Shown in pieces: positions 285-39,764 of a stretch of 64,000 nt of DNA. The DNA is from Naegleria gruberi (taxonomy: Eukaryota). The stretch lies in NCBI GenBank assembly GCA_000004985.1, contig GG738892.1; one strand, given 5' to 3'. The position numbers and the translations under genes were made by a program. Below the pieces are notes generated by a model that made no database searches, was not told where the DNA came from, and saw only the letters and a program-made list of their open reading frames with translations. Numbering within the stretch: the first letter of the stretch is position 1; each line of letters starts with the position of its first letter.

Positions 285-355
285 TGCGTCGACCGGGAAT
301 TGAACCCGGGTCACGGCGATGGCAACGCCGTATTCTACCACTAAACCATCGACGC
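285..355 (-). tRNA. tRNA-Gly (anticodon GCC)
   Basis: Reverse complement folds as a cloverleaf: acceptor GCGTCGA/TCGACGC, D-arm TGGTTTAGTGGTAGAA, anticodon stem CGGCG/CGCCG with loop TTGCCAT (GCC), T-arm GGGTTCAATTCCC. About 71 nt, no intron, discriminator A. Confidence 0.85.
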
Positions 356-479: not shown

Positions 480-3400
480 ATGGATGATCAGTGGCCCACC
501 CACCAAATTGACAAGAATGATGATCAAACTATTGATGTGGTTGGTAACCTAAAACCGAAGGAAGCGATCAAGGAGGTGAACAAAAAAATTAAACAATTAG
601 AGAATGAAATTAATTCCCACTTGTCCTCGTTTGATGTTAGTTTTGACTTTGGAGAAAATGGAGACTTCCAAAGACTGTTAGTTACCATTAGAAAGTTTGG
701 TAAAACATTTGCTAACGAAACTTTTGTAGCTTGTACAGACAAAAGCTCTCCAAGTATGATCTTTAGGTATTTGGAGGTGGCAGAAATATCATCTGCTAAA
801 AAATCAAATGAATTTGGCATTGAAAAGACACAATACTATTATGTAAGTAATTATACTAGTGGCATGTCAAATTCATTTCAAAAAGTTATTACAAGATATT
901 TCAAAATATCTCAAAAAGAATATGAATATGGAAGAATCGCTATTCGGCAAAGCAAAGAAAATGTTATTTGGTAAAACTAAGAGTGAACAGCTTTTAGATG
1001 AGTTGGAAATTATTTGTAAAGACAGATTCTATGAAGTCAACAACAAAGTGCTAGAAGAAGGTGTCGATGAAATTTGTGATTTCATCCAAAACAAAAAGAA
1101 AGAAGAAGCAAGAAAAATATTTCTTTCTCTATTTATGATGGTTTCTAAAAATCCTGACATATATTCTAATGTCAATCTCTTTCAAGTGGCATGTACTCAT
1201 TTATTACTGACACTATATGTTGCTAATAATCCACCTCCTGTTGTCTTTAAATGGATAAGTGAAATTCTCGTTACTAGTGCAAAAGATTACTCCAAATTTG
1301 CCCATAATATCAGGAAAATAATGTTGCTGAGTGGATTGAAAAACTTTGAGTTTGAATATGTATTGGTATTGCATCAATTTAAAAATAATCATTTTGATCA
1401 ATGGAATATATTTTGGAAAAAAGCCAGTATTTCAGCTGAGCTGCACGATTGGGTTTGTGAATATTATTTTAGAGTGTTTCCAAATAATTGGTATCATTTG
1501 GAAATTACTTTCTCCTCAATTATTCAACCTCAAAACTCCAAATATTTACCAATTTATGTATCTAGTTTATTGCAGAGATCACCAGAATATTTCACCAATT
1601 TTTGGAAGAACTATCTAAATAATTTAGACATGACAAAAGAACCACTCTACATATTTTGTCTGCAATTTTTATGCTATAACATACAGACATTCTTAAATGA
1701 TCTATTACTCAAGCAAAAGCTCATTTCTAGTCTTGCCACAAAAGAAATCCTTGATTTCTCTGAAAATACTCTTCAGTCTATTCTCCAAACAATTCAACAA
1801 TATGGAGTGGATTACTATTTGGGTGCACTGGAATTCTCACTAAAGAATAATGCCAAATCTGATAATCTGACCCCCAAAAACATGAGATTAGCAATCAAAT
1901 ACTTTCCAAATCAAGTGTCTAATGAAACTTTCATGATATTTTTAACAAACCAGATGAAAAAGAGGGCCAGTGTTGATGTAATATTCGAAATGATCGATAG
2001 TTACATGAATGTGAACGGATTGGATTTACAAAGAGTATTGTCCTTTTACACGAGTTGGTTTGGTTTAACAAAAGATTTCAGACATTTACAAATTTTTGAT
2101 ATTCTTGAATCAAAATCTATTGAATCTTTCATTTCTGAATTGGATGAAAATTCAGCGGAAACAATTGTATTGGCTTTATCTAACCTTTTTAATGATACAT
2201 CAGCAAAGGAGGCAAGACTGAAGTCTGCCAAGCAATTGTTCTACTTAGGATCTGATAATCTAACCAGACATCATTATGTATTTTATAAGGCATTTATCAA
2301 TTCATTGTTAGACTCTACTGATATGTTGGAAAGACTTAGAATAGTTTCATTAATCGCTGATGACATGTCTACTTCAAAGCTATTTTCGACTTTTGCTCCA
2401 TACCTTTTAGAAAATGCAATTGTAAATAGGGAACAAACAGGAATCAAGTTTTTCCTTGATTCTGAAAAGTACCTCAACATATTTATTAACACCTGGAAAC
2501 ATAATCAAAATTCAAAGGAATGGAAAGAGTATCGTGACTTATTCGTAAGTGCGGTAAAGAATCCTCTTCAAGACTTGACAGATAGCATTTCAGACAACCA
2601 GATAACGATCAAGGATTTGGAATTGTTACAAAAAGAAAGATATCGTTTTAATTCACTGATCGAGAAATTAGATTTAGCTAAAGTGAATGGAATAGAAAGA
2701 AAGATAGAAACTTCCAAGTCTGTAGAAAAAGATATTCAAGAATTGACTAAAATTATTTCATGGTTAAAAAGGTTCCCACTGCTTATGGAGTTTACACAAC
2801 ATTTATCATTACTGGATGAAACATCTACACTCTCAGAATTGGAATCTAATGTTGAAAGCCTCAAGGCACAACTTGATTATATTGATAACAGAAGAGACTT
2901 GATAATTTTTCTCCACGATGAAGACAGTCTATTGTTCCACTCTCTATTCAAAAAATTTCTTCATGACTCTGGGGAAACTGGTGATATTATAGCAGTATCT
3001 GAAATATTTACAAGAGTGATTGAATTCTTGGAACACATTAATATGCAAAATATTCAAAGTTTGAAAGAGTATGAGATTTTAGATCTTTCTAAGCAGCTGA
3101 GAGCTAAAGGAAAAACTCTCTCTGGTGAGATTGAACTTCTATCCTCAGTTCTTAACAAGACTAGTTCAGGAGGTCAATTTAATATCAATTTGGAGGTTTT
3201 AAGAAAAGCACTAAACTTGGAAGAGCTTGGAACTGGATTAGAATATTTTGTTGATTGTATGCAAGACTACAATATGGAGCTTGTTAAAGAAGAGAGTTTC
3301 AATAACATAAAAAGACTCAAAGATAGATTGTACGGTCTGAGAGACATTCCTCTTTCGGAAGTTGAAGTAATTCTTGATGTTTCTAATGAAGCAATGCAAG

Positions 3401-6400
3401 GTTTGGACGGTTATCACACCAAATATTTTAAAGATTTATTAACTCCAGAGTCAAAAGGATTAATTCAATTTTTGAAGGATAATTTGTTAAGCTTTGAAGA
3501 TTCTATCAAAGTAGTAAGGACAAGAAGTAGAAACTCTAAATTCCACGAAGAAATAGTGAATTCTTTAATTATTGCCAAAGAACTGGTCTCTCCTTTACTC
3601 AATCAAAAGATCACCTTCCAAGATTTTAGAAATAAGATTCTTGCCTTATTCAACAAGGAAGAGGATCTTTTCAAGCTTAAGGAACTTCAAGTTGTTAACG
3701 AAAATCTTACAACCATCAAAATTTTATTCTCTAGTACAGCCACTATCCACCTTGATGATGTTTTTGATAGTGTCAGGGCAATAATAGAAAAGGGAAAGTT
3801 TATTTCCACACCAGATTCATTAATCGTTAGCTACGAAGATAAAGAAATATCAGGAGAAGAGCTAGTTGATTTGGTTAGGGTTGCTATTTTCAGATCTTCT
3901 GATTCAGAAAATGACCAAAATATCAAGATGAAACATGATTTACAAAACTTTATATTGCTTTATCAAATGGCAGAGCAAATTCAGTCAACTATCAAAGAGC
4001 TAATCAAAGAGGGTTATCCTAAATACCATGATCAAGAACGAATCGAAATTAATGAAAGAATGGAAAAATTAGAGCTTGAAAAGAAGAACAATGCTTTTAA
4101 TGCAAAACTTGAAAAATGGAAAAAATCTATTGAGGACCTTGTGGAATCACAACCATTAGTTTTAAATTTATCAAGAAGTCAACTAACAAAATTTGTTTCA
4201 CTCTTCAAGGATAGTTTAGAAAGTGAAGAAAGGGAATGTCAAAGTCTTATTCCATATATAATGCTAATTGTTAAAGAATTGTTCAGAGATAATCTGAAGC
4301 ATTATCCAATTACAGAAGAAGGATTGAAGGAAATTTTGAGTGGTTTCAAAAGTACAACAAGTGCAAAAGAGATTTTGAAGCTTTCTGGTGAATTTGTACA
4401 GAAAATTATTGAAAGTATTGCTGGCGATTTAGATCAAGAAAGAAATAACTACGAAACCAAAACACTGTATGATGTGAATGGCTCACAAATACCAATTATT
4501 CTACTTAAAATATTCCAAGAAAATATCATTCAGTACTCTGGTGATAATAGTGTTTTGATAGTCAACAATTCCAATATCTTCTACTGTGATGAAAGTACAA
4601 GGAAAGAGGACATTCAATGGTTTTGTAAAAGAAGGAAAGCTTTCCCGGAGCTCACTTATGCTCTGGTTCATGTGAACAAGTTAGTGCTCAGTGTGAAGGA
4701 AGAGTTGATCAAGTTTGAGTTTGAAGCTCATGAAAAGAACCAAAAGGTAGGATTGACTACTTTGATTTTCACATCAGACGCATCTAAAGAAGCATTCTCA
4801 TTTATTGAAACAAAGAATGACATTGAAGGTATGGCCCAAAAGAAGCCAATTATTAGCAAGTACCTTTCAGAAAGTTGTAAGATAGAGAAATTTGAGACTG
4901 TTAAGGGAGAATCAGCTTCTGGTAAGACTCGTTATATTCAATCAGAAAAACGAGATAATGAGGTCTATGTGAGAATTGCAGTACATGAAGAATTTTCATA
5001 TGACTATTTTTATGAACAATTGTGTTCTTATGATTTTGAAAATTCACCAAAGGTTTTAATTCATTTTGATGTTTCCTATGTTTTTGAATTGAGAAACTTT
5101 GAATTATTCTTACTTGAATGGATCTTTGGTAGATGCTTGCAAAGTAAGAAGGGTCAACTGGTTGATACTTGGGGCAACACTAAAGAATCAATTCGTATTT
5201 TTGTTGAAATACCAAGTAGCTTTGAAAAAGTCAAGTTGGATTTAATATCTTTAATTGAGACTACTATTGGACCAAAATCATTACATTCAGATCTTGCAAG
5301 TTTTGATTTTGGAGAGGAAAAAACAAGATATGTAGCCTCAATGTTTACTTTGTTCAATTCAAAAAAGATTAATGATATTAATCGTTTCTTGAATGTTGAC
5401 AAGAATTTAGTCTCGGAAGAAAAGTCGAGACAAGTGCTTACTCAATTTTTCAGCGTAAGCAAGGTTACAAAAAGCCATTCATTGAGAAAAATATTCATTG
5501 AATTGATGTATGAAAGGTTAAGAGGTCTTGAAAATTATCATATTAAGTTTTTGAAATTGAAAGAGTCCAACGAGTTTGGTCAAGATATTTACGGAAATGC
5601 TCAAGAATTAATTTTCACAATCAATGGAACTCTCTTCCCTGTATTTAAAGAAGAATGTGAGGTGATGACAGATAATACTATTGAACGATGCTGGAGTGAC
5701 CTTCCCGTAGTATTTGCAGTACCAAATCTTACAGATGATATACCCAATTATAATATCGTCAGATGTTCTAAATGTAGCACTACTAGAGAGTATATTGGCA
5801 TGCAACCACTTGATGTAAAAACTAGCACACTAGCAGAAATACGTTCAATATTGACATCCTCTTTCGAAGTTAATTCCATAATTGAAATTTGTGAAAAGAC
5901 CAACTATTTGCTAACTAAGGACTTTGCTATCAAATTATTTTTGTTAGATGAAAGAAGAAAGGTTGGCAGATCTGTTATTATTGAAAGTGAAACTGGTGTG
6001 GGAAAAAGTGAATTGCTTCGATTTTATTCAAATATTTTAAATTCCAACAACAAATTATTGCCTGATATAAGATTTGAGCTAAGGAAGTGGCTGTGTGAAA
6101 CTGTTGATCAATTCACTTCCAAGAATAATATTCAAACAGAGGTTAGAACTAAAAATATGGACAAATGTAGATCCAGAGAATATATTGTAAAGCTGTTGAA
6201 AGAAACAGAAGAACAAGTTGGTCAACAGTTGTTGCAAGAAATTACAATTTCTCTAGTAAGCGCAGTTAAGAAAATATTTGATGAGTTCAAATTAATTGAA
6301 AAAACAGACCTTATTAACTCCACTTTTGAGGCTCTTGAACAACAGAATTATGATTTATGGACAGTGGATATGATTGCTGACTTTTTAGCTCAAGCTGAGT

Positions 6401-9400
6401 CAGCAAGACCTGAAAACTCTATTTATTTCAAGATTTTGATGCATAGTGGTATAAGTTCACAAGAAATAAGACAAACTATAAGAGATATCGAAAGAAACAC
6501 TTTGAGATTAATCAATTCAGGATATCAAGACTTAAAGGTTGTTGTTTTCATTGATGAGTTGAATACAAGCAGTTGTATGGGCATTATGAAAGAGCTATTT
6601 GTGGACCATACATTAGACGGTCAATTGTTACCAAAATCTATCTTTTTTGTTGGTGCCATAAATCCAAAATTGCAAAATGAAGAATATGTAGTTAACGAAA
6701 TTGCACCATCCATGAAACTTATCAGATTTAACTATGCAGATCTCTCTAAATATCAAGAGCAAGAATTTTTGGCTCTACTGATCGAATTAGAGCAAAAGAA
6801 GCGAGATGAACATGAAGGATTTGTACATGATTTACAAACATTCATTTTATCTGCCCAACGTTTTGTTGCAGAGTCTAAACAATTGGATAAGAGAATAAGA
6901 GTTTCAATCAGAGATTTAACAAGGGCATGTAAACTATATTGGTTTTTGAAGGATAATGAAGTTCTTTACTACTCTGCTAATCTCTCCATAGAACAATGTC
7001 ACATTATTTGCTTATACATGGCCTTAGCACTGTCCTATTATTTCAGATTACCTTCTAGTGAGAGAACCAAATTTGAGGAAATGATTGATAGAGAAGCACA
7101 TACTCAGGTGCAATATGGAATCTTTGCATTTTCTCAAGTTGTCTCAGAGCAATTAGGATATTTCTATCAAAAAGCAAAACAACGCGGATTTATTCCTCCA
7201 GGTATTGCAAGTACAAAAGCATTATTAGAAAATTTCTTCACTATGGTCATTGGAATTCAAGTTGGAATAGGAATCAGCTGTGTTGGTCCTCCAGGAAATT
7301 CAAAGACTTTATCTTACACTATTGCAACACAAAAGAAGAAGAGTCTTTTTGTTGGAATGAAAACTGTTCATACCCAACATTATCAATGCAATGAATTGTC
7401 TACTGCTAATGAAATTGAATTAGTAGTAAAGAGCCAAGTTGAAACTAGACGAAAGTATGAAAGAGCAGGAATGGTTAACGAAATTTGTAGTGTATTAATT
7501 GATGAAGCAAGTCTTCCAATAGAAAAGAAAAATTCGCTCAAAGTTCTTCATTACTATCTTGACAAACCAACTATTAGCACAGTTCTCATTTCAAACAATT
7601 TATTGGATGCAGCTAAATCTAATAGATGTATTCAAATTGTTCAACCAGAGACTAGCTTTGAGGATTTGAGAGCACTTTGTCAAGGTTGTTTAATGTTAAA
7701 TGAAGATGACATTAAGCCAAATTCAAGAATAGATAGAATTATTACAGCATTATGTAAATCATTTAAAGAGGTCAATTATGTGCTTACTAGCACAATTGTT
7801 AAGCAACATAATGGCACTGGTGGAATTTTCCATTTGAGAGATTTCGTCTACTTCTTAAGAATGCTATCTAAGAATAAGGGTAATCACAAGGAGGTTTTCT
7901 CTGGTAACAATATTTACTATTGTTTACAACGTAATTTTAATGGTGTTCCAGAAAATGATTTCCAAAAAATTCAAGAGCTTTTCTTGACAAATATTAACGA
8001 AATGTTAGGAACAAAGATTCATATCGAAAAGGAAAAGATCAAGCAATATATTGATGTAGTATATGATAGTATTCACGATAGTTTATCAAAATACGATGAT
8101 CCAAATCAATCTCACTACAGACATACTATGATTATCGATCCGAGCCAAGCTCAGGCCTCTATTAAGCTTTTAACATCCAACAATATAATTGACCAATCCA
8201 AGACAAAGGTTGTTTACATTAGCGATTTTAAGGGTGATACAAATGATTTGTCCCTTTCTCAAGAAATTAGTGAAGTCAAAAATTGTATGGAACTTGGAGC
8301 ACCGGTAGTATTGGTAAATTCATCTGCCATTTCTACAAATTTCTTTGACGTTTTTAACAAACACTTTACCAAGGTAAATGATAGATACTTTGCCAATGTG
8401 TCTATTAAAGGAAAAACTCACCCATGTGAAATTAATTCCAGCTTCCACTGTATAGTCCACGTTCCTATTGCACAATACAGAGAGTTACCTTTGCCATTCT
8501 TGAATAGATTTGAGAAATACATTATTGGTGCAGAGAGAGTTTTGAAGAGTGATCTTTTGGTTGAAAAAGAGGAGAGCAAGAAGGCAATTTTCGATCACAT
8601 CAGAAGAGGAGTTAATGACTTTGTTCGTCAATTTGATGCTAGTACATTCTATGGTCTTGTTGAAGATGAAACAGTGGATTTATTAATCAAATCAATCTAT
8701 CAACAATCCAAAGACTCTATTCAAATTAAGAAACCACTAACAATTAAGAATAATAACATTATAGAACTATTGAAAGAAAATGGTATGGAAGATAATATCG
8801 ATTTAGAGGAAGAGGACGAAGAAATTTCCATCAACAAACTGAGGAGCTACATTAGAAAGATTAACTTTCAACTGTTGCAAATTGCCAAACCTGAAGATAT
8901 TTTCCTCAGAAGAAAATTCATTCCAAAATCCTACCTAGTGGAGTACCTCACAAAACAAGAGCACTTTTGTACAATTTCATTTTTGAAGAATGCCATAGAC
9001 CAACATTTCAAACAATCCACAACAAATAATTCAAAGTACATTCTTTATACCAGACACTCAAGTGGTATTCACACTCTCAATGATACTGACCGTTTAAAGG
9101 AGATTACCTCCGTTGCATGTACTTCTGAACCTTTGAAGTCATGTGTGAACAATCCAAGTGAAATTATTACCCTTGCTTCACTTTCTTCATTCTCTTCTCA
9201 ATTAGAATTCCACAGATTCTTGGGAGAGTTTGCAGCTGATCATCAAAAGCTTGTTTTACTATTAACCATTGATATGTCAATGATTTCTAAAAACACTGTG
9301 AATTTTGTAAAATTCAAGATTGAGAATATTCTTTCTTCTCCAATGAAGAAGGTTAAGAATATGACACCTTTCGTTTCTCTTATTCTCTACTTCCCTCCAG

Positions 9401-12400
9401 AGTCTTCTCATTTCAATGCTGCTTACGATAGTATTTTCTTAGGGTGGGACTATTATTACATTGACAGTTTAAGAGGAGACCTTGGTGATGGTCAAATTAG
9501 TCAATATAGAGATAGCAGATACTGGTTTAGTGTTGCTGTTGGATTACTGAAGGGATTCCGTGCATCTGATAAACAGGCCTTCCAAAATTCTTTCATTCCA
9601 TTATATAACAAGCTTTTGGAAGATTATATTCGTTCAGATAATACAGCCGTTGCATCTGGATCACTTAGTCCATTTTTCATGAGAAGAAATATTAACAAAC
9701 TGGTAGACAAGAAAAAGTTTATTCTGACAAATATTAACAAGCTTGAATTATTGAGAGACATTGTGTTGAACATGTTTGCTGATAGGTGGAATAACCAGTT
9801 CCTTTCTCAACTCGTTCAAAAAATATGTACCGATATTACCAGTGGTAAGATAGTCAATGGTATCATTCAAACAATTTCCTATGAACTTTCGTCTGTCCTA
9901 GAAGAAATGATGTATCCTATCACAAGAAAATTAATTTATCTTACACCATCCGTACAAAAGATTCTCAATGTAGAAGATCAATCTACACTTTGTTTACTAC
10001 GTAAATTGATAGAGGTTTTCATAACAACAAACAAGAAAAAGAGCAAGAGCTCAGATATTTTACATGTATCAACCTATCAAAGTACAAATGAACACTTGCC
10101 TCTTTCTACTCTCCTTATTGAAAAGATGATTCTAAATGAGAAATCTGATAATCTAGACGAAGTGGTAGAAATGATTGAGAATGACAAGGAAAATTTTGAA
10201 AAATTCCGTCTCGATATGATTTCTTTCTATTTTGAAAAAGACATTACAAAAGAAGACCAAGCAATAAGATTAGTTGATATTCTTATTTCCCCTATTTGGA
10301 ATAGTGCAGAGGGAAAGAAGAGTATGAGACTACTCTCACATCTTTCACAAACCAAAGTCAAGAATAGTATCAAAATCTTACTTAACGTTCTTTCCCAATT
10401 CAAGTCTATTAATTTCTTGACAGACGAATTCAAAAAACATTTGCAAGGAAAGCAACTCCATGAGTGTTTGGAAGTCATCTTTACTTACATTCTTGATTAT
10501 GTATACAAAAATATAGGAACAGCTCTTGAAGAGAAAGACTTGGATAGTATTAATAGTTGGATGAGCGAACTTTCATCTATCAACTTTATGTATATTAAGG
10601 ATATTGCACCTAAATACTTTAAGAGTTCAAGATTCTCCATTCTATTCTTGGTCTACTATGTGTTGAAAGGATGGGTTTTAAGTGAAGAGCAAATTGAATA
10701 TTTGTGGAAAGGAATTACAGAACTATACAAAAATCCAACATACCTACCAGATAACTTTATAGATATTTATAATTGCTTCAAAGATACTGTTACAACCTTC
10801 TTGGACCCTAATCAACAATCTATCTGGATTAATAATGTTACGAGATTTGCCTTTGTGCATATTATTGACATTTGGTCGGCTCCATCATTGACAAACTTTT
10901 TCACAATTATTTCACAATACGAAAAGGATGAAAATTCAATTTTCAAACAACTTAATATTGGCTTGATAACAAGTATTACAAAAACCATAATGGCTCGTTA
11001 TCTGCAAAACAAATTCAACCAAAATATGACGAATGTAGTTGAGCAAGAATTGAACAATTACTCTGATGAAAACTTTGTCCCAGAAGAATTATCTTCAAAG
11101 AAACAACCATTCTCTGTTCTGCTTCTTCAATCATCATATCTTTCTCATCACTCTCAATCAAAATGGGAAACATTCCTTCCACTCTTTACAAGACATCAAG
11201 AGGATGGAGGCAATAGTAAGCTTTCCAAACTTATCACTCAAGCCAACAATATTTTGCTGATAACAAAGCTCTCGAGTCATCTCCTCAAAGATGATGATCC
11301 ACAAAAAACTATTGAAAATATGGATGCAGAAACATGTGAATTGATTACTAATGTTATGAAACAAGAAAACATGGCTCTTTATTTCCTTTCAAGATATACT
11401 TCTGATGTTGAGTTGGAGATGATTCTTACTACAAATAGAGGAGAATTGGGAAGAATAGGACTGGCAAATTTCCATATACCATCAATTAAGAAGAATTTTA
11501 AATCTCATCATTTCTCATTCATGCATGATAATAATCAAGTGTACACAGATTTGAAAAGACATATTGAATCTAACAATATTCAACAGATACATAATTTTAT
11601 CAATACCAATGCTGCCCAGCATAAGTATTTCATTAGAATGTGTTTGATTGTAATCTCGTATAATTTCTACTTTTTGGAATGTAAATCTTGTGATGCTGTA
11701 TTGGCTATTTTACAAGACAGAAATGTATTGAATACTCTTAGTATTGATGACTCTGAGTTGAAGGCATTCGTATTCTTTGCTACTAAACCAGTATCTCTTC
11801 CAGTTGAGAAACAAGATGACTGGTTCGCATCATATTACTTCTCTCAGGAATTCATCAACTCTAACAGGGATAAGATGCTGACTCACCTCCTAGCAAATAT
11901 TACAGCAACTAATGTGGGCGTTCCAAAAGAGAAGAATCACTTGTATAACAGAATGTTTAATCCACAAGTATTGGCCAATTCATTCGGTCCTGGAAGTACA
12001 TATCAGGATAGGAACTGGGATTGTGGATATACTAGCTCTGGATACAATATTAATAACATTGAAAGCCACAATATTATGAATAGAAATCAGACATACCACT
12101 CAGCTTTGAACTCGCTCACTTGGGCTTCCTTTGTAATGTGCGTAATATTCGATCCAGCAAAGAATGAAAATGCTGCCAAAGGTGGACATATGTGTAATTG
12201 TATTGATGATGTCAAATTCAGGCCCAATTTAAGCAATTTGGAACAACTTCAAACCTATATTAAGATTAGGGCTGATACTTTCTGTTCTATTTTTGCTCAT
12301 TCACCTAATATTATTGGAAATGTGGACCCAATTATTTTCTTTACCTCATCTCTCGAGGAATTCACCAAGCAAGCACCAAACAGTAATGATTGTTTTGGAT

Positions 12401-14469
12401 TCTTTGCAAATAATAATACTCCAACCATTAGAGCATATGAAAACTTTTGGATGAACTCATGTTTCATTCCAACACTCAATCGTTATGCTAACATTGTTGG
12501 TAAAATGAATGCTGGTCAGAAACTTCTTCAAGATATTGGTCAATTCAAGGAAAGATCGTTGGCTATTAGAAAATGTGTTGATTTATTCCCTTCAAGAGAA
12601 AATATTCTTGCTTTCTTCTCCCAAAGATATACTGATATTGAAGATAATGCTGAGCTCATGACAGTAAGGCAAATAGTCAAACATAAGGACTGGTTATTGT
12701 TTAGTTATTATTTTATTGACTTTTTGAGTTTTTATGTTAAATTACACAGAGGTTTGAATGGCAAGATTGAAAGAGACTCAATTCATATGACAGTCAAGGA
12801 TGCATTAACACTCATTACCAAAGATAAGAGTAAACAAGAGGAAGAAGCCATCTACGAAAGTTGGGAATGCTTTAAGAAATCTTGGAATATTGTATCAGAA
12901 AAACAAGAGAGAAACATTGTTTGTCAACATGCTAACCAAGCTGAAATACCAATTATTGATGAAAACTCAATTCTCTCTCATCTGCTCTATGTTGAAGGTG
13001 GTAATAATGAGATTGGAACATTACTTTTAACAATTTATAATGCTCAATCAGATATTCAACAAGGACATTCTTTCCCAGATACCATTGATGCAGCCTATGT
13101 TATGGAACTTGATGATGTCTTTTACAAACTATTATTCAGCAAATTTGAGGATGATAACTTCTTTGAAAATATTCAATACTATGTAACAATCAATAACGGA
13201 GATATTAACTTTGATTGGAAGTCATTGGAGAGTTATTTTGTTGAATCACTTTCTAAAGGAAGGCCAAGACTTTTGGTTAAAAAGGATCAAGTTATTAGTC
13301 CACAAGCCATCTGCAAGTTCAAGGAGGATATCCCAATTGAGGAAGATTTACCTGATGAGATAATTCAAGAAGATAGCCTTTCTCTGGATACTTATGCATC
13401 TGAACTGAATACCTTGATTGAAAAGATGAATAGTATGGATATTTCATGGAAAACATTCGACAATACCAAGAAGAAATCATTTATGAATTCACTCAACTTC
13501 AGAGATACTAAAAAGATTTTACAAATTGCCAAAGATACATGTCAAGCTGCCACAAATTTGATTGGAAAAGTTCCCTTCAAATCATTTAGTATTGTCAACT
13601 CAGAAAGGGAAATTTTAGGATTCTCTGAATTTGTATTGGACATTATTTACAATAGAGATGAAGTTAAATCTCTATACGATAAATTCTCCTCCACGTTCAG
13701 AATTCCAATGTCAACCTCAACAAAGGAGAAATTTGAGAGAATTACTCTCTATACCATGAAAATGGTAGAAACATCCAATCCAGAATTGGATAATTTCCTG
13801 TCTGATTTGAGAACTATTGCTACTGTTATTTACAACAATGAAAAGGATATTGTTAATGCATACGCTTCAATGACAACTGCTAGTCTTAGAACCGTTTTTG
13901 AGTCTCAAATTCAAGTCAAAAATCACGATAATTTAGCTCAAATCCTTCCAAACTATTTCCTTGTTAAAAATTTGGTTCCTTACATTGAAAATATTAGAAG
14001 ATTAATTGGTAAAATTGAGCTCAAGAAATCTTCCATGAAAACGGAAAATTACCAAGAGCTTGTCCCTGATAATCTGAAAACAAGACCTGAATCTCCTATT
14101 GATCCATTGGACAGTTTGATTTCAAAAGTAGAAGAACCTGAAGAAGAAGAAGAAATTCCACAACCTCCTCCAATGTTTAATGTGATGCCACTATCTAACC
14201 TACCAATCATGCGTCCAAACATGCCTTCTAACAATTACACAATAGATCCAAATCAAATGAACAAGATTAAGAACCTTATGGAACAAGCCCAGAACGAGAA
14301 GCAAATTTCTCTACTTCTGCAACCACAATTATTGGATAATAATCTTCTATTGAGATTGGTAGAATTATTGGAAGAGGCAGAAATGTTGACAGAGGAAGGT
14401 AAAGAACTGCAACAAGCAATTTCAACCAACCAAACTATTATTTTACAAAACTTTAACAAGTTGAGATAA
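480..14469 (+). CDS. Giant (~4650 aa) protein with two dynein/midasin-class AAA+ ATPase modules (possibly RNF213/mysterin-like). Proposed structure: exon 1 480..842, 43-nt intron 843..885 (GTAAGT...AAAAAG), exon 2 886..14469.
   Basis: A 13.6-kb uninterrupted ORF in AT-rich DNA. First AAA module: Walker A 'ESETGVGKSE' (near nt 5990), Walker B 'VVVFIDELN', sensor 'FVGAINP' (AAA_5/dynein-midasin style). Second module: 'GPPGNSKT' (near nt 7290) with 'SVLIDEAS'. An upstream 121-codon ORF (480..842) ends exactly at a GTAAGT donor and joins in frame to the main ORF through an AAAAAG acceptor at 884-885. Confidence 0.6.
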
Positions 14470-14606: not shown

Positions 14607-15973
14607 TTAATTTTGATATCCACCATTTTGGTTATAATATTGTTGTTGTTGGGATTGAGAATAGCCCATATTTCCATATTGAGAATCATTCATTGGATTT
14701 CCATATTGTACAGATTGACCATATTGAGAAGTATTTTGAGAGGTTGGAATATTTTGATAATTACTTTGATACATGTTGTTTTGATTTCCTGGTTGACCAT
14801 TATAATAAGATTGATTCATAGAAACTGGACTAACAGATTGATTAATGGCTTGATTAATAGATTGAGTCATTGGTTGTTGTTGCTGTTGGGAAGTAGATGG
14901 AAGTTGTGTACTAGTGTACTTTTGATTCAACTTTTGAGTAATGGTATCCAAAATCTTGCATTGAACTTCATAGGTCTTTTTCATTTCAGCATTTCTAATT
15001 CTGAGATCTGAAACTTCCCTTTCCAATAGGGCAACCATTTGATTAACCTTTTCATTCAATTCATTTGGTGGTGAAGTTTGATTTGAAGGAATAGAATTGG
15101 CAGATAAATTATCAACCTGTTGAACAAATGATACTGTTTGAGTATTCAAATTATTTGCATTATTGGAATAGGATAATGATGGATTAACTGCTTGTTGAGG
15201 TGAATTTCTAGTAGAACCATTAAAATTGAAATTATTCACAGATCTAGAATCAACAGAAGATTGAGAATATTGTGATTGATTATCGTGGGATTGATTCATA
15301 TTTCCATGACCAACATTTCCAAGTGCTTGTTGTTGTTGTTGATTGCCATTATTATAATTTCCACTAACAGTACCATTGGAAGAAGGCATTGATTGATTGG
15401 CAGCACTATTCGTTGGAGTGTTGTTTGGTGAAAAGGATGGAGGTGATGCAACTGATCGGAAAGCATTACCATTCATCATCATGGAATTATTCATCATTGG
15501 ATTATAGTTTTGATTGTTATTCATCATCACCATGGAATTATTCATCATTGTTGTGGTTGTGGTTGCTGATGATGTTGATTATTATTGTTGATCATTACAT
15601 TATTTGGAATATCGGATGATGCTGATGATGATACTTGTTGTTGTGGTTGGAAGGAATTATTCATCATAGGATTAATAGGAGATGATGATCCATAACTTTG
15701 CTGATTTGATTGTTGTGGCACAACAGAACTACTGTATTGTTGATTATTGTGTTGTTGTTGTTGTTGTGGATAGGAAGGAACAGAAGAAGAAGCATTCATA
15801 TATGGTTGTTGTTGCATCTGATGATGATAGGAAATTTGATTACCACTTCCAATGGTTACTCCATTATTATTATTATTACTGAAATTATTATTGATATTGC
15901 TAGTAGTGTTGGAAAGGTTTGAGTATTGTTGGTGTTGCTTTTGTCGCTGATCAGCTTCTTGTTGGGAAAGCAT
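14607..15973 (-). CDS. Q/N-rich low-complexity (prion-like) protein with a C-proximal coiled coil. The two ORFs (15545..15973 and 14607..15548) are offset by one nucleotide, so this is a frameshift or indel.
   Basis: Both ORFs on the minus strand show strong N/Q/S/M bias (runs QQQQQ, NNNNN) and a heptad region 'ELNEKVNQMVALLEREVSDLRIRNAEMKKTYEVQ'. The frames overlap by about 12 codons within CAA/CCA repeats near 15545. Confidence 0.5.
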
Positions 15974-17769: not shown

Positions 17770-18228
17770 ATGCAATTATTTGTCAAGACACTCACTGGAA
17801 TAACTATCACTTTGGAGGTTGAATCTAATGATTCAATTGAAAACGTGAAAAGAAAAGTGCAAGATAAGGAAGGAATTTCACCAGATCAACAAAGACTCAT
17901 CTTTGCTGGAAAACAATTGGAAGATGGCAGAACTATTAATGATTACAACATTCAAAAAGATTCAACTCTTCATTTGGTGTTGAGATTAAGAGGAGGAATG
18001 CAACTTTTTGTAAAAACTTTAACTGGAAAGACAATCACTATTGAAATGGAATCGAATGATACTGTTGAGAATATGAAACAAAAGATATTTGATAAGGAAG
18101 GTATTCCTTCAGATCAACAACGATTGATTTATGCCGGTAAGCAATTGGAAGATGGAAGAACTATTGGTGATTACAATCTTCAAAAGGATTCAACTGTGCA
18201 TTTAGTATTGAGATTGAGAGGTGGTTAA
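17770..18228 (+). CDS. Tandem di-ubiquitin (2 x 76 aa, ending GG-stop), highly divergent from canonical ubiquitin
   Basis: Two head-to-tail ubiquitin-fold repeats, [10 protein letters not shown]...LRLRGG, with the stop directly after the second GG. Repeat 1 differs from canonical ubiquitin at 11 of 76 positions and repeat 2 at 16 of 76. The two repeats also differ from each other. Confidence 0.85.
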
Positions 18229-18765: not shown

Positions 18766-19002
18766 TTAAGCAGAAGCTTGCATAATCTTGAAACCCCACC
18801 AGATGGCCCACAACCAACCAATCAACAAGGAAGCCAAGATAAATTGGAGAATACCAACAATCAAAGTTGAAGTCATCTTTTCCTTTTCAGAAGTGAGGAA
18901 AGCAGCAATAATAGTACCGAAACCTGGGAAGAGGATATTGAGGATGAGGACAATCAATCCCATACCTTCACATCTTGGAGTGCTATCTTCGAGGAGACCC
19001 AT
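18766..19002 (-). CDS. Small (78 aa) two-TM membrane proteolipid, paralog A. Possibly SPEC3/Stum-like.
   Basis: MGLLEDSTPRCEGMGLIVLILNILFPGFGTIIAAF...LIGWLWAIWWGFKIM. It has two hydrophobic helices, a C...N..FPGfGT motif and a GWLWxIWWG motif. It is 90% identical (70/78) to the ORF at 20560..20796. Confidence 0.6.
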   Translation of the reverse strand: MGLLEDSTPRCEGMGLIVLILNILFPGFGTIIAAFLTSEKEKMTSTLIVGILQFILASLLIGWLWAIWWGFKIMQASA

Positions 19003-19530: not shown

Positions 19531-20275
19531 ATGCCAGAATCTTACACTCTCCATTATTTCAACCTCCAAGCCGTAGGTTTTGATTTTCATCACATCATCA
19601 TAAAATTCAAATTAATTCAATTAACACTTCTTTCTTTGATAAATTAAAAAGAGAGGTGAAGCTGCCTATCTCATAGCTGTGCACGGTGGCGTTCCAGTCA
19701 CAAGAAATCTCTTCTCCGATTTCAACAAGGATTTGAAGGAAAAGTGTCCTTTCGGACAGGTTCCATTACTTGTTGTGCAGGATGATGTCAGTGGTGCCAC
19801 TGCACACATTGTACAATCTATTGCAATTTGTGAATTTTTGGCAAAGAAGGCTGGTTTAATTCCAACCTCTCATGTTGAACAAGCCATTGCTTTGCAATAC
19901 GTGTTGGGAGTTGATGAATTTAGAACTGAAGTCTACTCTCAATATTACAGTGGAAAGGAAACACAACAGGCAAAGAAGGAATGGAAGGAAGGAAAGATGA
20001 AATTCTTCTTGGACAAGTTTGAATCATTCTTGGTTGGAAATAAGAAGGAAGATCGTGATCTCTTCCTTGTCGGATCATCAATTTCTTGGGCTGATATTTG
20101 CTTGTATGATGCATTGGTAGAACAAGCCTTTTTGTTGGATGAAGATAACTTGTGGGGTAATTATCCACTCCTCAAAAAATTCATGAAACAAGTTGAAAAC
20201 AGTTCTGAATCCTTTAAACAATATGTTACAAGTAGCAGTAAACCAGTTTTGTATATGAAGAATTGGAGACAATAA
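19531..20275 (+). CDS. Glutathione S-transferase (sigma/HPGDS-like class), two exons: exon 1 19531..19576, intron to 19661 or 19676, exon 2 to 20275
   Basis: Exon 1 encodes MPESYTLHYFNLQAV (a GST N-terminus of the MPxYxLxYFN type). Exon 2 contains PFGQVPLLVV and a C-terminal GST domain (LVGSSISWADICLYDALV). The acceptor is a pyrimidine tract ending ...CTCATAG. The donor GTTTTG and the exact acceptor are uncertain. Confidence 0.6.
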
Positions 20276-20559: not shown

Positions 20560-20796
20560 TTAAGCAGAAACTTGCATAATCTTGTAACCCCACCAGATAG
20601 CCCACAACCAACCAATACACAATGAAGCCAAAACCAATTGGAGGATACCAACAATCAAGGTTGAGGTCATCTTTTCCTTTTCACTGGTGACGAAAGCAGC
20701 AATGATGGTACCGAAACCTGGGAAGAGGAAGTTGAGGATGAGGATGATCAAACCCATACCTTCACATCTTGGAGTACTATCTTCTAAAAGACCCAT
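20560..20796 (-). CDS. Small (78 aa) two-TM membrane proteolipid, paralog B of 18766..19002
   Basis: 90% amino-acid identity to paralog A. The flanking 5' and 3' UTR nucleotides are also similar (aagcagaaRcttgcataatcttg). Confidence 0.6.
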   Translation of the reverse strand: MGLLEDSTPRCEGMGLIILILNFLFPGFGTIIAAFVTSEKEKMTSTLIVGILQLVLASLCIGWLWAIWWGYKIMQVSA

Positions 20797-39691: not shown

Positions 39692-39764
39692 CGCCCACCG
39701 TGGGGGTCGAACCCACGACCACAAGGTTAAGAGCCTTGCGCTCTACCGACTGAGCTAGACGGGC
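39692..39764 (-). tRNA. tRNA-Lys (anticodon CUU)
   Basis: Reverse complement is GCCCGTCTAGCTCAGTCGGTAGAGCGCAAGGCTCTTAACCTTGTGGTCGTGGGTTCGACCCCCACGGTGGGCG. It has a canonical cloverleaf, anticodon loop CTCTTAA and a GTTCGA T-loop. Confidence 0.85.

What the first reader, a model, noticed from the sequence alone, without database searches (positions are those of the whole stretch)
480..14469. Giant ~4650-aa protein with two dynein/midasin-class AAA+ modules in a single 13.6-kb exon
The protein has a GETG-x-GKS-type P-loop, an hhhhDELN Walker B and a GAINP sensor (AAA_5 style). About 430 aa downstream lies a second GPPGxxKT / hhIDEA module. Very long flanking regions carry no recognisable domains. 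Size and layout resemble RNF213/mysterin-type mega-ATPases rather than dynein or midasin (no six-AAA ring, no C-terminal MIDAS). Such proteins are poorly characterised outside metazoa. An unusually long insert separates Walker A from Walker B in module 1.
Basis: partly seen in the sequence, partly recalled or inferred. Interest (0 to 1): 0.6.

Follow-up and report, generated by a model that had tools for sequence, protein, structure and literature searches.

The report
Naegleria RNF213-like giant AAA+ protein
This is a real 4,648-residue gene of the amoeba Naegleria gruberi, a distant relative of the human immune and stroke-risk protein RNF213 that keeps its ATP-driven core but lacks both of its known ubiquitin-ligase fingers.

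Summary
Window 480-14469 carries one giant gene: exon 1 (480-842), a 43-nt intron (843-885) and a 13.6-kb exon (886-14469), giving 4,648 aa. The public model, Naegleria gruberi XP_002673185.1 ("uncharacterized protein", 4,515 aa), starts at nt 922.

The only significant solved-structure relatives are human and mouse RNF213 (E = 2.5e-33). The Walker A/B residues of the two modules align with RNF213 AAA3 and AAA4 (human K2426, K2775, E2845), and the alignment runs on into AAA5.

Two predicted structures extend the likeness downstream:
- The region after AAA5 hits RNF213 first (Foldseek E = 3.7e-6).
- A conserved C-terminal module hits the RNF213 E3 module first (E = 0.03, probability 1.0).

It is not RNF213 proper. 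It has no RING and no RZ finger. AAA3 carries a 183-aa Walker A-to-B spacing, against 61-77 in RNF213. The C-terminal module has a near-invariant Asp-Cys-Gly motif.

The same features define a large unnamed family (2,042 cluster representatives) found in Heterolobosea, Amoebozoa, Alveolata, stramenopiles and rotifers. Several members are fused to ubiquitin-hydrolase domains.

The most likely function is an ATP-switched, ubiquitin-system effector. That is inferred, not shown. I rate it a new variant of a known kind.

The parts
480..842 (+). Probable exon 1 (121 codons, starts ATG). It is not part of the public gene model.
   Evidence: ORF in frame 0. It ends at a GTAAGT donor. The joined protein aligns across the junction to the N. 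fowleri orthologue, E = 7e-6.
843..885 (+). Probable 43-nt intron, GTAAGT...AAAAAG, phase 0.
   Evidence: Read directly from the sequence. Removing it restores the frame. Residues encoded at 886-921, upstream of the annotated ATG, are conserved with N. fowleri. No transcript data were available.
886..14469 (+). Giant exon 2 (4,527 codons plus stop). The annotated CDS XP_002673185.1 corresponds to 922-14469.
   Evidence: Stop-free frame. The exhaustive protein search finds a 100%-identical 4,515-aa protein, P0011, named.
4906..4929 (+). Upstream P-loop GESASGKT. It sits where RNF213 has AAA2. An hhhhFDVS strand with Asp but no Glu follows at 5053-5076.
   Evidence: Lys is conserved in 30/30 and G-K-[ST] in 29-30/30 relatives. 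The equivalence to RNF213 AAA2 rests on position only: a family profile against PDB gave only generic P-loop hits.
5902..8550 (+). AAA3-AAA4-AAA5 core, homologous by sequence to RNF213.
   Evidence: phmmer against PDB: ORF aa 1682-2564 aligns to human RNF213 2392-3182, whole-sequence E = 2.5e-33, best stretch 2.6e-25.
5986..6009 (+). AAA3 Walker A, SETGVGKS. The Lys aligns with human K2426.
   Evidence: Lys is present in 95/96 relatives.
6043..6432 (+). Insert of about 130 aa between the AAA3 P-loop helix and the next strand. It is a hallmark of the clade.
   Evidence: Unaligned against RNF213. Walker A-to-B spacing is 183 aa here and 155-361 (median 197) in 98 relatives, against 61-77 in RNF213-proper fragments.
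6538..6666 (+). AAA3 Walker B (VVVFIDELNT) and sensor I (FFVGAINP).
   Evidence: In 120 relatives: D 117, E 118, sensor Asn 118. An Arg in the downstream SxRD motif is invariant, 120/120.
7285..7308 (+). AAA4 Walker A, GPPGNSKT. The Lys aligns with human K2775, and the G-x-S-K form is shared with human GKPGSSKS.
   Evidence: Lys is present in 135/140 relatives.
7489..7515 (+). AAA4 Walker B, SVLIDEASL. The Glu aligns with human E2845.
   Evidence: D 139/140 and E 138/140. A downstream Asn (139/140) and Arg (140/140) are also conserved.
8599..10251 (+). Post-AAA5 block. It contains a further, P-loop-less AAA+-like alpha/beta fold followed by helical bundles, and is probably the AAA6-plus-hinge equivalent.
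   Evidence: Conserved in 113 of 150 relatives. AF2 model at pLDDT 60.5. The Foldseek top five are all RNF213, 6tax at E = 3.7e-6, followed by Vps4, NSF, p97 and dynein.
11539..12471 (+). Conserved C-terminal helical module, resembling part of the RNF213 E3 module.
   Evidence: Found in 57 of 150 relatives. AF2 model at pLDDT 87.2, pTM 0.88. The Foldseek top four are all RNF213, 9jwg_A (E3 module) at E = 0.032, probability 1.00, TM 0.54; every other hit has probability below 0.1. No Pfam or PDB sequence-profile hit.
12019..12027 (+). Near-invariant Asp-Cys-Gly motif (Cys3701 of XP_002673185.1) in a small hairpin/turn element of the C-terminal module. It is a candidate functional cysteine.
   Evidence: In 40 relatives: D 39, C 37, G 37. 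In alignment A1, D and G are invariant and C is at least 90%.

Best explanation
**What it is.** The gene encodes the Naegleria gruberi member of an old, eukaryote-wide and so far unnamed sister family of RNF213 (mysterin).

**Shown here:**
- A long N-terminal region with no detectable domain precedes a dynein-like AAA+ block.
- In that block, an upstream conserved P-loop module has an Asp but no catalytic Glu.
- Two modules with complete Walker A, Walker B, sensor and Arg motifs follow. They are homologous to RNF213 AAA3 and AAA4.
- A P-loop-less AAA5 also aligns to RNF213, and one more degenerate AAA+ fold comes after it.
- The C-terminal third contains a conserved helical module whose predicted fold matches only the RNF213 E3 module.
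- There is no RING finger and no RZ finger. AAA3 carries a clade-specific insert of about 130 aa. The C-terminal module carries a near-invariant Asp-Cys-Gly.

**Inferred from RNF213 biochemistry (PMC7311170, PMC12075652):**
- The AAA ring is not a processive motor. It acts as a nucleotide-state switch.
- ATP binding and hydrolysis at AAA3/AAA4 move the two ring halves. That movement allosterically gates the C-terminal effector module.

**Inferred from the E3-module likeness and the recurrent ubiquitin-hydrolase fusions in relatives:**
- The effector module acts in the ubiquitin or ubiquitin-like system.
- Most plausibly it docks a charged E2, as the RNF213 E3 shell and CTD do.
- The conserved Cys is the best candidate for a thioester-forming or otherwise catalytic residue.

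The biological role is untested. Cell-autonomous handling of bacteria, vacuoles or lipid stores in a bacterivorous amoeba is only a guess.
For: **Identity and integrity**
- Neighbouring ORFs match N. gruberi proteins exactly.
- The product is identical to XP_002673185.1.
- Orthologues share 53-56% identity with it in Willaertia and N. fowleri, and a contiguous 4,577-aa Naegleria version exists.

**RNF213 homology of AAA3-AAA5**
- Only RNF213 chains are hit, E = 2.5e-33, with Walker residues in register.

**Catalytic motifs under selection**
- Counts across 96-140 relatives are given.

**Downstream likeness to RNF213**
- Foldseek E = 3.7e-6 for the post-AAA5 block.
- Foldseek E = 0.032, probability 1.0, top four hits, for the C-terminal module.
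- Overall proportions match. About 1,970 aa follow the aligned core here, against about 2,025 aa in human RNF213.

**Link to ubiquitin**
- A Pfam UCH domain is fused at the C-terminus of relatives P0033 (E = 3.8e-20) and Acytostelium P0031 (E = 2.7e-11).
- Seven further relatives carry the dictyostelid-type domain.

**Family size and spread**
- 2,042 cluster representatives at E <= 1e-3 and 412 at E <= 1e-30, mostly 4,000-6,000 aa.
- Named members come from Heterolobosea, Amoebozoa, Chromera, Mallomonas and Rotaria.
Against: - No sequence-level homology to RNF213 was found outside AAA3-AAA5, whether with single sequences or family profiles.
- The E3-module match has a marginal E-value (0.03) and a TM-score of only 0.54. 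I could not see which residues were aligned.
- The post-AAA5 model has low confidence (pLDDT 60.5).
- The two elements that perform or were proposed for ubiquitin transfer in RNF213, RZ and RING, are absent. Ligase activity therefore cannot be carried over from RNF213.
- A direct test of 'the DCG hairpin is a zinc-less RZ finger' found no sequence support: -3.9 bits, with 494 of 1,000 shuffles scoring as well.
- Fusion to a hydrolase domain is circumstantial. The Naegleria protein itself has no such domain.
- No expression, localisation or biochemical data exist.
Confidence: 0.65

Rival explanations
1. An AAA+ scaffold or remodeller with no ubiquitin chemistry. The family would be a nucleotide-gated giant scaffold, for example for membrane, lipid-droplet or cytoskeletal assemblies. 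Its C-terminal helical module would be purely structural. On this view the ancestor of RNF213 gained its ligase function only when the RZ and RING fingers were inserted.
Against: A single cysteine kept in 37 of 40 divergent cytosolic proteins, flanked by an invariant Asp and Gly, is unusual for a purely structural helix bundle. Independent fusions to two kinds of ubiquitin-hydrolase domain point to ubiquitin.
Confidence: 0.28
2. A true orthologue of RNF213, that is a RING- and RZ-containing E3 ligase whose fingers were merely overlooked.
For: The best and only PDB relatives are RNF213. Size and domain order are similar.
Against: The whole protein holds only three CxxC pairs and no Cys/His cluster. 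Pattern searches for RZ (C-x3-H-x6-C-x8-C-x2-C-x8-H, checked against the real human sequence) and for RING find nothing in it or in its 150 relatives. Pfam finds no zinc finger. The AAA3 spacing is clade-specific.
Confidence: 0.03
3. A dynein- or midasin-class mechanoenzyme, meaning a processive motor or a ribosome-assembly remodeller.
For: Weak Pfam AAA_7 ('dynein motor region') matches at both P-loops. AAA_5-style motifs are present (GAINP, P.LNRFEK). Axonemal dynein chains appear low in the fold search.
Against: No dynein or midasin chain is hit by sequence at E <= 1. There is no MIDAS/VWA domain, no dynein N-terminal or stalk families. The active modules are in positions 3 and 4, not in AAA1 as in dynein (PMC7311170).
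Confidence: 0.03
4. An annotation or assembly artefact: a pseudogene, a fusion of several genes, or a repeat-derived ORF.
For: The N. fowleri orthologue is annotated as two adjacent genes, FDP41_003264 and FDP41_003265.
Against: The frame has no stop in 4,536 codons, against 219-512 stops in the other frames. Relatives align colinearly over almost the full length. A contiguous 4,577-aa Naegleria version spans both N. fowleri halves. Catalytic motifs are intact.
Confidence: 0.01

Closest known systems
RNF213 / mysterin (human Q63HN8; structures 6TAX, 7OIK, 9JW1, 9JWG)
   Same: - Giant single chain of about 4,600-5,200 aa.
- AAA3, AAA4 and AAA5 are homologous by sequence, with Walker residues in register.
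- AAA4 has the unusual G-x-S-K-[ST] P-loop in both proteins.
- An extra nucleotide-binding-type P-loop lacking a catalytic Glu sits one module upstream, as in RNF213 AAA2 (PMC7311170).
- The post-AAA5 block and one C-terminal module have RNF213 as their best structural match.
   Different: - No RING and no RZ finger.
- No CBM20 or any other N-arm domain detected.
- An insert of about 130 aa in AAA3.
- A conserved Asp-Cys-Gly module that shows no sequence match to RNF213.
- The N-terminal part is about 600 aa shorter.
- No sequence similarity outside AAA3-AAA5.
Midasin / Rea1 (MDN1)
   Same: Giant protein with AAA_5-style modules, such as the NP sensor and the LxRF motif.
   Different: No sequence hit to any midasin chain. 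There are not six P-loop AAA units. No D/E-rich linker followed by a MIDAS domain.
Cytoplasmic and axonemal dynein heavy chains
   Same: The AAA modules are concatenated in one polypeptide. Positions 3 and 4 plausibly act as a regulatory switch (PMC7311170).
   Different: No active AAA1, no stalk or microtubule-binding domain, and no DHC N-terminal families. Pfam AAA_7 scores below its threshold.
ZNFX1 (the other RZ-finger ligase)
   Same: Considered only because it shares the RZ finger with RNF213.
   Different: ZNFX1 has a helicase core rather than a AAA ring. No RZ motif is present here.

Membership tests
RNF213 (mysterin) | Catalytically competent AAA3 and AAA4 with Walker A/B, homologous by sequence | tested here: met
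   phmmer E = 2.5e-33 to human and mouse RNF213. The Lys and Glu residues align with K2426, K2775 and E2845. The motifs are conserved in the family.
RNF213 (mysterin) | AAA2 that binds ATP but lacks the Walker B Glu and sensor I | tested here: inconclusive
   A conserved P-loop lies about 360 aa upstream of AAA3 and is followed by hhhhFDVS. A family profile does not retrieve RNF213, so the equivalence rests on position only.
RNF213 (mysterin) | Degenerate AAA5 and AAA6 completing a six-unit ring, followed by a hinge | tested here: inconclusive
   AAA5 aligns by sequence. The next block folds as AAA+-like with RNF213 as the top five hits, E = 3.7e-6, but the model is at pLDDT 60.5. AAA1 was not examined structurally.
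RNF213 (mysterin) | RING finger inside the E3 module | tested here: not met
   No Cys/His cluster, no RING pattern match in the protein or in 150 relatives, and no Pfam zinc finger.
RNF213 (mysterin) | RZ finger: C4505/H4509/C4525/C4528 bind zinc, C4516 is the nucleophile, H4537 the base | tested here: not met
   The motif is taken from PMC11549300 and the human sequence was recovered. No match in the protein or its relatives. The DCG region scores -3.9 bits against RZ.
RNF213 (mysterin) | Helical E3 module (back, core, shell) and CTD that dock E2~Ub | tested here: inconclusive
   One 311-aa module (pLDDT 87) has RNF213 E3 structures as its top four Foldseek hits, but at E = 0.032 and TM 0.54, with aligned residues not shown. 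The rest of the C-terminal third was not modelled. There are no sequence-profile hits.
RNF213 (mysterin) | N-arm with a CBM20 carbohydrate-binding domain | tested here: not met
   Pfam finds nothing in the N-terminal 1,650 aa. No PDB sequence hit.
Midasin / Rea1 | Six AAA_5 units plus a C-terminal MIDAS (VWA) domain | tested here: not met
   No AAA_5 or VWA hit in Pfam. No midasin chain at E <= 1.
Dynein heavy chain | DHC N-terminal regions, active AAA1, coiled-coil stalk with a microtubule-binding domain | tested here: not met
   Only sub-threshold AAA_7 hits, 14.7-16.7 bits against a cut-off of 25.8. No dynein chain is found by sequence.
Unnamed 'long-insert' RNF213-like clade (defined here) | AAA3 Walker A-to-B spacing above 150 aa, a C-terminal module with Asp-Cys-Gly, and no RING or RZ | tested here: met
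   Spacing is 183 aa here and 155-361 aa in 98 relatives. The module is found in 57 relatives, with DCG conserved. No relative has the fingers.

The most novel reading that the evidence does not exclude
The Asp-Cys-Gly module would be the active site of a new class of AAA-gated, thioester-forming ubiquitin (or ubiquitin-like) ligase. This class would predate the RZ finger. On that reading, the RNF213 way of working (E2~Ub docked on a helical shell, transfer to a cysteine on a small hairpin, gating by the ATP state of a dynein-like ring) would go back to early eukaryotes. Metazoan RNF213 would be a later, zinc-stabilised derivative of it.
Probability: 0.15. Interest if true: 0.8.

Novelty: new variant of a known kind. 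Interest (0 to 1): 0.6.

Why it matters
RNF213 is the main Moyamoya-disease susceptibility gene. It is also a cell-autonomous immune ligase that ubiquitylates bacterial lipopolysaccharide. It is usually described as a vertebrate or metazoan invention, and how its AAA ring controls its E3 module is unsolved (PMC12075652).

This finding places a RING-less, RZ-less relative in at least four eukaryotic supergroups. Some of those organisms are genetically tractable (dictyostelids) and one is a human pathogen (N. fowleri). That gives three things:
- An outgroup for asking which parts of RNF213 are ancestral.
- Simpler systems for studying the coupling between the AAA ring and the effector module.
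- A specific, testable candidate residue, Cys3701.

If the conserved cysteine proves catalytic, it would define a new ligase class. If it does not, the family shows what the RNF213 chassis did before it became a ligase.

Tried and rejected
1. **Word-indexed protein search**.
   - With the AAA core it found only three fragments and missed the query's own database entry.
   - With a human RNF213 fragment it returned only pieces under 750 aa, so no full-length RNF213 was available for local profile-profile alignment.
   - With the C-module alignment it found nothing.
2. **Sequence searches of the N-terminal, middle and C-terminal thirds against PDB**, and family profiles of three regions. None gave an RNF213 hit outside AAA3-AAA5.
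4. **'The DCG hairpin is a zinc-less RZ finger'.** By eye the spacing looked suggestive ([DE]-C-G ... I-(M)-G-G). The family HMM scores the human and mouse RZ 37-mers at -3.9 and -3.2 bits, and 494 of 1,000 shuffles do as well. I dropped it as unsupported.
5. **Invertebrate RNF213 loci** from Amphimedon, Saccoglossus and Mytilus, fetched to reach their E3 modules. Gaps and introns meant no RZ or RING lay within reach.
6. **Scans of viral and prokaryotic collections** for relatives. There was none in viral contigs, and the alignments were too divergent for the pattern scanner.
7. **The supplementary alignment of the eLife RNF213 paper** is not held as text.
8. **Pfam on the whole protein and on seven overlapping pieces** gave only sub-threshold P-loop hits.

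Full report
**1. What is in the sequence**

The + strand carries a stop-free frame of 4,536 codons from 859 to 14469. Over the same span the other five frames contain 219-512 stop codons each. This is a real coding region, not a chance ORF in 32% G+C DNA.

The two frames are joined cleanly by a 43-nt intron with a GTAAGT donor at 843 and an AAAAAG acceptor ending at 885. The result is exon 1 (121 codons) plus a 13,584-nt exon, 4,648 aa in all.

The junction is supported by a BLASTP alignment to the N-terminal half of the N. fowleri orthologue. It runs straight across the splice site (YYYLLQDISKYLKKNM against YIKLLRDLKSHIDKNI; E = 7e-6 in a five-sequence database). The residues encoded at 886-921 lie upstream of the annotated start but are conserved. 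No transcript data were available, so the 5' structure is inferred.

**2. Source and annotation**

Five neighbouring ORFs are letter-for-letter identical to Naegleria gruberi proteins. The giant product is identical to XP_002673185.1 / EFC40441.1 / D2VRS3_NAEGR, 'uncharacterized protein NAEGRDRAFT_81001', 4,515 aa, which corresponds to 922-14469.

**3. The motifs**

- SETGVGKS at nt 5986-6009
- VVVFIDELNT at nt 6538-6567
- FFVGAINP at nt 6643-6666
- GPPGNSKT at nt 7285-7308
- SVLIDEASL at nt 7489-7515

A third P-loop, GESASGKT (4906-4929), lies about 360 aa upstream. It is followed by a strand with Asp but no Glu (LIHFDVS).

**4. What it is related to**

Pfam gives only sub-threshold P-loop hits: AAA_7 at 16.7 bits against a cut-off of 25.8.

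phmmer against every PDB chain returns nine sequences at E <= 1. All nine are human or mouse RNF213, the best at E = 2.5e-33. The alignment covers ORF residues 1682-2564 against human 2392-3182. After removing the 40-residue tag of chain 9g08_A:
- the first Naegleria Walker A lysine falls on K2426 (AAA3);
- the second falls on K2775, and its Walker B glutamate on E2845 (AAA4; these residues are listed as AAA mutants in PMC11549300);
- the alignment continues into AAA5.

The upstream P-loop without a catalytic Glu sits where RNF213 has its ATP-binding but non-hydrolysing AAA2. A family profile of that region did not retrieve RNF213, so that equivalence rests on position only.

**5. Beyond the AAA3-AAA5 core**

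Single-sequence searches with the N-terminal, middle and C-terminal parts found nothing. Family profiles of two downstream regions also found nothing. I therefore used structure prediction with family alignments.

- *Block after AAA5* (nt 8599-10251). It is conserved in 113 of 150 relatives and gave a low-confidence model (pLDDT 60.5). The model contains a five-stranded alpha/beta unit followed by helical bundles. Foldseek against PDB ranks five RNF213 entries first (6tax at E = 3.7e-6, 547 aligned columns). Generic AAA+ proteins follow: Vps4, NSF, p97 and dynein.
- *Conserved C-terminal module* (311 aa, nt 11539-12471). It gave a confident model (pLDDT 87.2, pTM 0.88). Its four best Foldseek hits are all RNF213, led by the focused map of the human E3 module (9jwg_A: E = 0.032, probability 1.00, TM 0.54). 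Every other hit has probability below 0.1.

**6. How it differs from RNF213**

The protein has three CxxC pairs in 4,536 residues and no Cys/His cluster. The RZ finger pattern is C4505, H4509, C4516, C4525, C4528, H4537 (PMC11549300). I recovered the real human sequence, WYTCPNGHPCSVGECGRPMEQSICIDCHAPIGGIDHK. Neither that pattern nor a RING pattern occurs in this protein or in any of its 150 closest cluster representatives.

AAA3 has 183 residues between the Walker A Lys and the Walker B Asp. The range in 98 relatives is 155-361, with a median of 197. RNF213-proper fragments have 61-77.

The C-terminal module contains an Asp-Cys-Gly motif: D in 39, C in 37 and G in 37 of 40 sequences. Further near-invariant residues are Asn3659, Ala3662, Gly3666, Trp3734 and Arg3783.

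I tested whether this hairpin might be a zinc-less RZ finger. The family HMM scores the RZ 37-mers at -3.9 and -3.2 bits, and 494 of 1,000 shuffles score as well. There is no sequence support for that idea.

**7. The family**

An exhaustive phmmer search of 1.84 billion cluster representatives with the AAA core gave 2,042 proteins at E <= 1e-3 and 412 at E <= 1e-30. Most are 4,000-6,000 aa. Colinear homology extends over most of the length in the nearer relatives.

Named members:
- Heterolobosea: Willaertia magna, Naegleria fowleri, Pharyngomonas
- Amoebozoa: Mastigamoeba, Mastigella, Pelomyxa, Endostelium, Polysphondylium, Acytostelium, Tieghemostelium
- Alveolata: Chromera velia
- Stramenopiles: Mallomonas
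- Metazoa: the rotifer Rotaria

All are labelled hypothetical or uncharacterized, or at most 'AAA+ ATPase'. The literature library holds nothing that links RNF213 to Naegleria, to Dictyostelium homologues or to protists.

Catalytic motifs are strongly conserved across the family:

| Module | Residue | Conserved in |
|---|---|---|
| AAA3 | Walker A Lys | 95/96 |
| AAA3 | Walker B Asp / Glu | 117 / 118 of 120 |
| AAA3 | sensor Asn | 118/120 |
| AAA4 | Walker A Lys | 135/140 |
| AAA4 | Walker B Asp / Glu | 139 / 138 of 140 |
| AAA4 | downstream Arg | 140/140 |
| Upstream P-loop | Lys | 30/30 |

Some members carry extra C-terminal domains:
- a canonical UCH/USP ubiquitin hydrolase in P0033 (E = 3.8e-20);
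- a divergent UCH in Acytostelium P0031 (E = 2.7e-11) and seven other relatives;
- a Cdc48-type AAA domain, a SAM domain and an SH3 insert in others.

**8. Mechanism**

*Shown:* the anatomy above.

*Inferred from RNF213:* in that protein the ring lacks an active AAA1 and is not a processive motor. AAA2-bound ATP glues AAA2 to AAA3. AAA3 and AAA4 reorient the two ring halves (PMC7311170). The AAA core senses ATP and ADP and allosterically switches on a transthiolating E3 module. [quoted passage not shown]

The Naegleria protein keeps the same active positions and an E3-module-like fold. The most economical reading is a nucleotide-gated switch controlling a C-terminal effector.

The link of that effector to ubiquitin rests on the fold match and on the hydrolase fusions. 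The proposal that Cys3701 is catalytic rests only on its conservation. The rival view, in which the helical chassis is ancestral and non-enzymatic and ligase activity arrived with the RZ finger, cannot be excluded. I give it about 0.28.

**9. Verdict**

The statement 'no six-AAA ring' should be dropped. The protein fails the membership test for RNF213 proper, because RING, RZ and CBM20 are not met. It works like RNF213 in its AAA core and probably in overall architecture. It is best filed as a member of a widespread, undescribed sister clade: a new variant of a known kind.

Noticed in passing
window 17770-18228 (+): A divergent di-ubiquitin gene of two 76-aa repeats ending RLRGG-stop. The repeats share 65/76 and 60/76 identity with canonical ubiquitin and 61/76 with each other, and repeat 1 has Lys11 replaced by Ile. 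It lies only 3.3 kb downstream of the RNF213-like gene. The adjacency may be coincidental. I could not check whether it is conserved in other Naegleria species.
   Followed up: partly
window 922 (annotated ATG) versus 480-921: The public model XP_002673185.1 probably lacks its true 5' end. Exon 1 (480-842) and the first 12 codons of exon 2 (886-921) appear to be coding and are conserved with N. fowleri.
   Followed up: yes
related proteins P0284 and P0013 (N. fowleri FDP41_003264 and FDP41_003265): The N. fowleri orthologue is annotated as two adjacent genes of 2,068 and 2,884 aa. A contiguous 4,577-aa version from another assembly (P0285) spans both, so the split looks like an annotation or assembly artefact.
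   Followed up: partly
window 285-355 (-) and 39692-39764 (-): tRNA-Gly(GCC) lies 125 nt upstream of the giant gene's probable start codon, on the opposite strand. A tRNA-Lys(CTT) lies further along the window.
   Followed up: no
window 18766-19002 (-), 19679-20275 (+), 20560-20796 (-): Two paralogous 78-aa predicted membrane ORFs (MGLLEDSTPRCEGMGLI...) flank an ORF that looks like a glutathione S-transferase by eye. This appears to be a small local duplication.
   Followed up: no
window 14607-15973 (-): Two abutting Asn/Gln-rich ORFs (14607-15548 and 15545-15973) lie immediately downstream of the giant gene on the opposite strand. They are probably one low-complexity gene interrupted by an intron or a frame change. 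The 313-aa ORF, the only one scanned, has no Pfam hit.
   Followed up: no
relatives P0033, P0031, P0029, P0014: Family members have gained different C-terminal add-ons: UCH/USP hydrolase (two kinds), a Cdc48-type AAA domain, a SAM domain, and an SH3 domain inserted after AAA4. P0039 (Mallomonas) has a Cys-rich stretch, CPQCNQLGIRVDGCDVLKCGG, that resembles an IBR/RBR element by eye, but Pfam does not recognise it.
   Followed up: partly
window 22398-57553: The rest of the window holds ordinary housekeeping genes, several with ORFs that start mid-protein and so imply introns: a C2-domain protein, Vps41, a CwfJ-family protein, beta-COP, a RabGAP-TBC protein and an NAD-dependent epimerase.
   Followed up: partly
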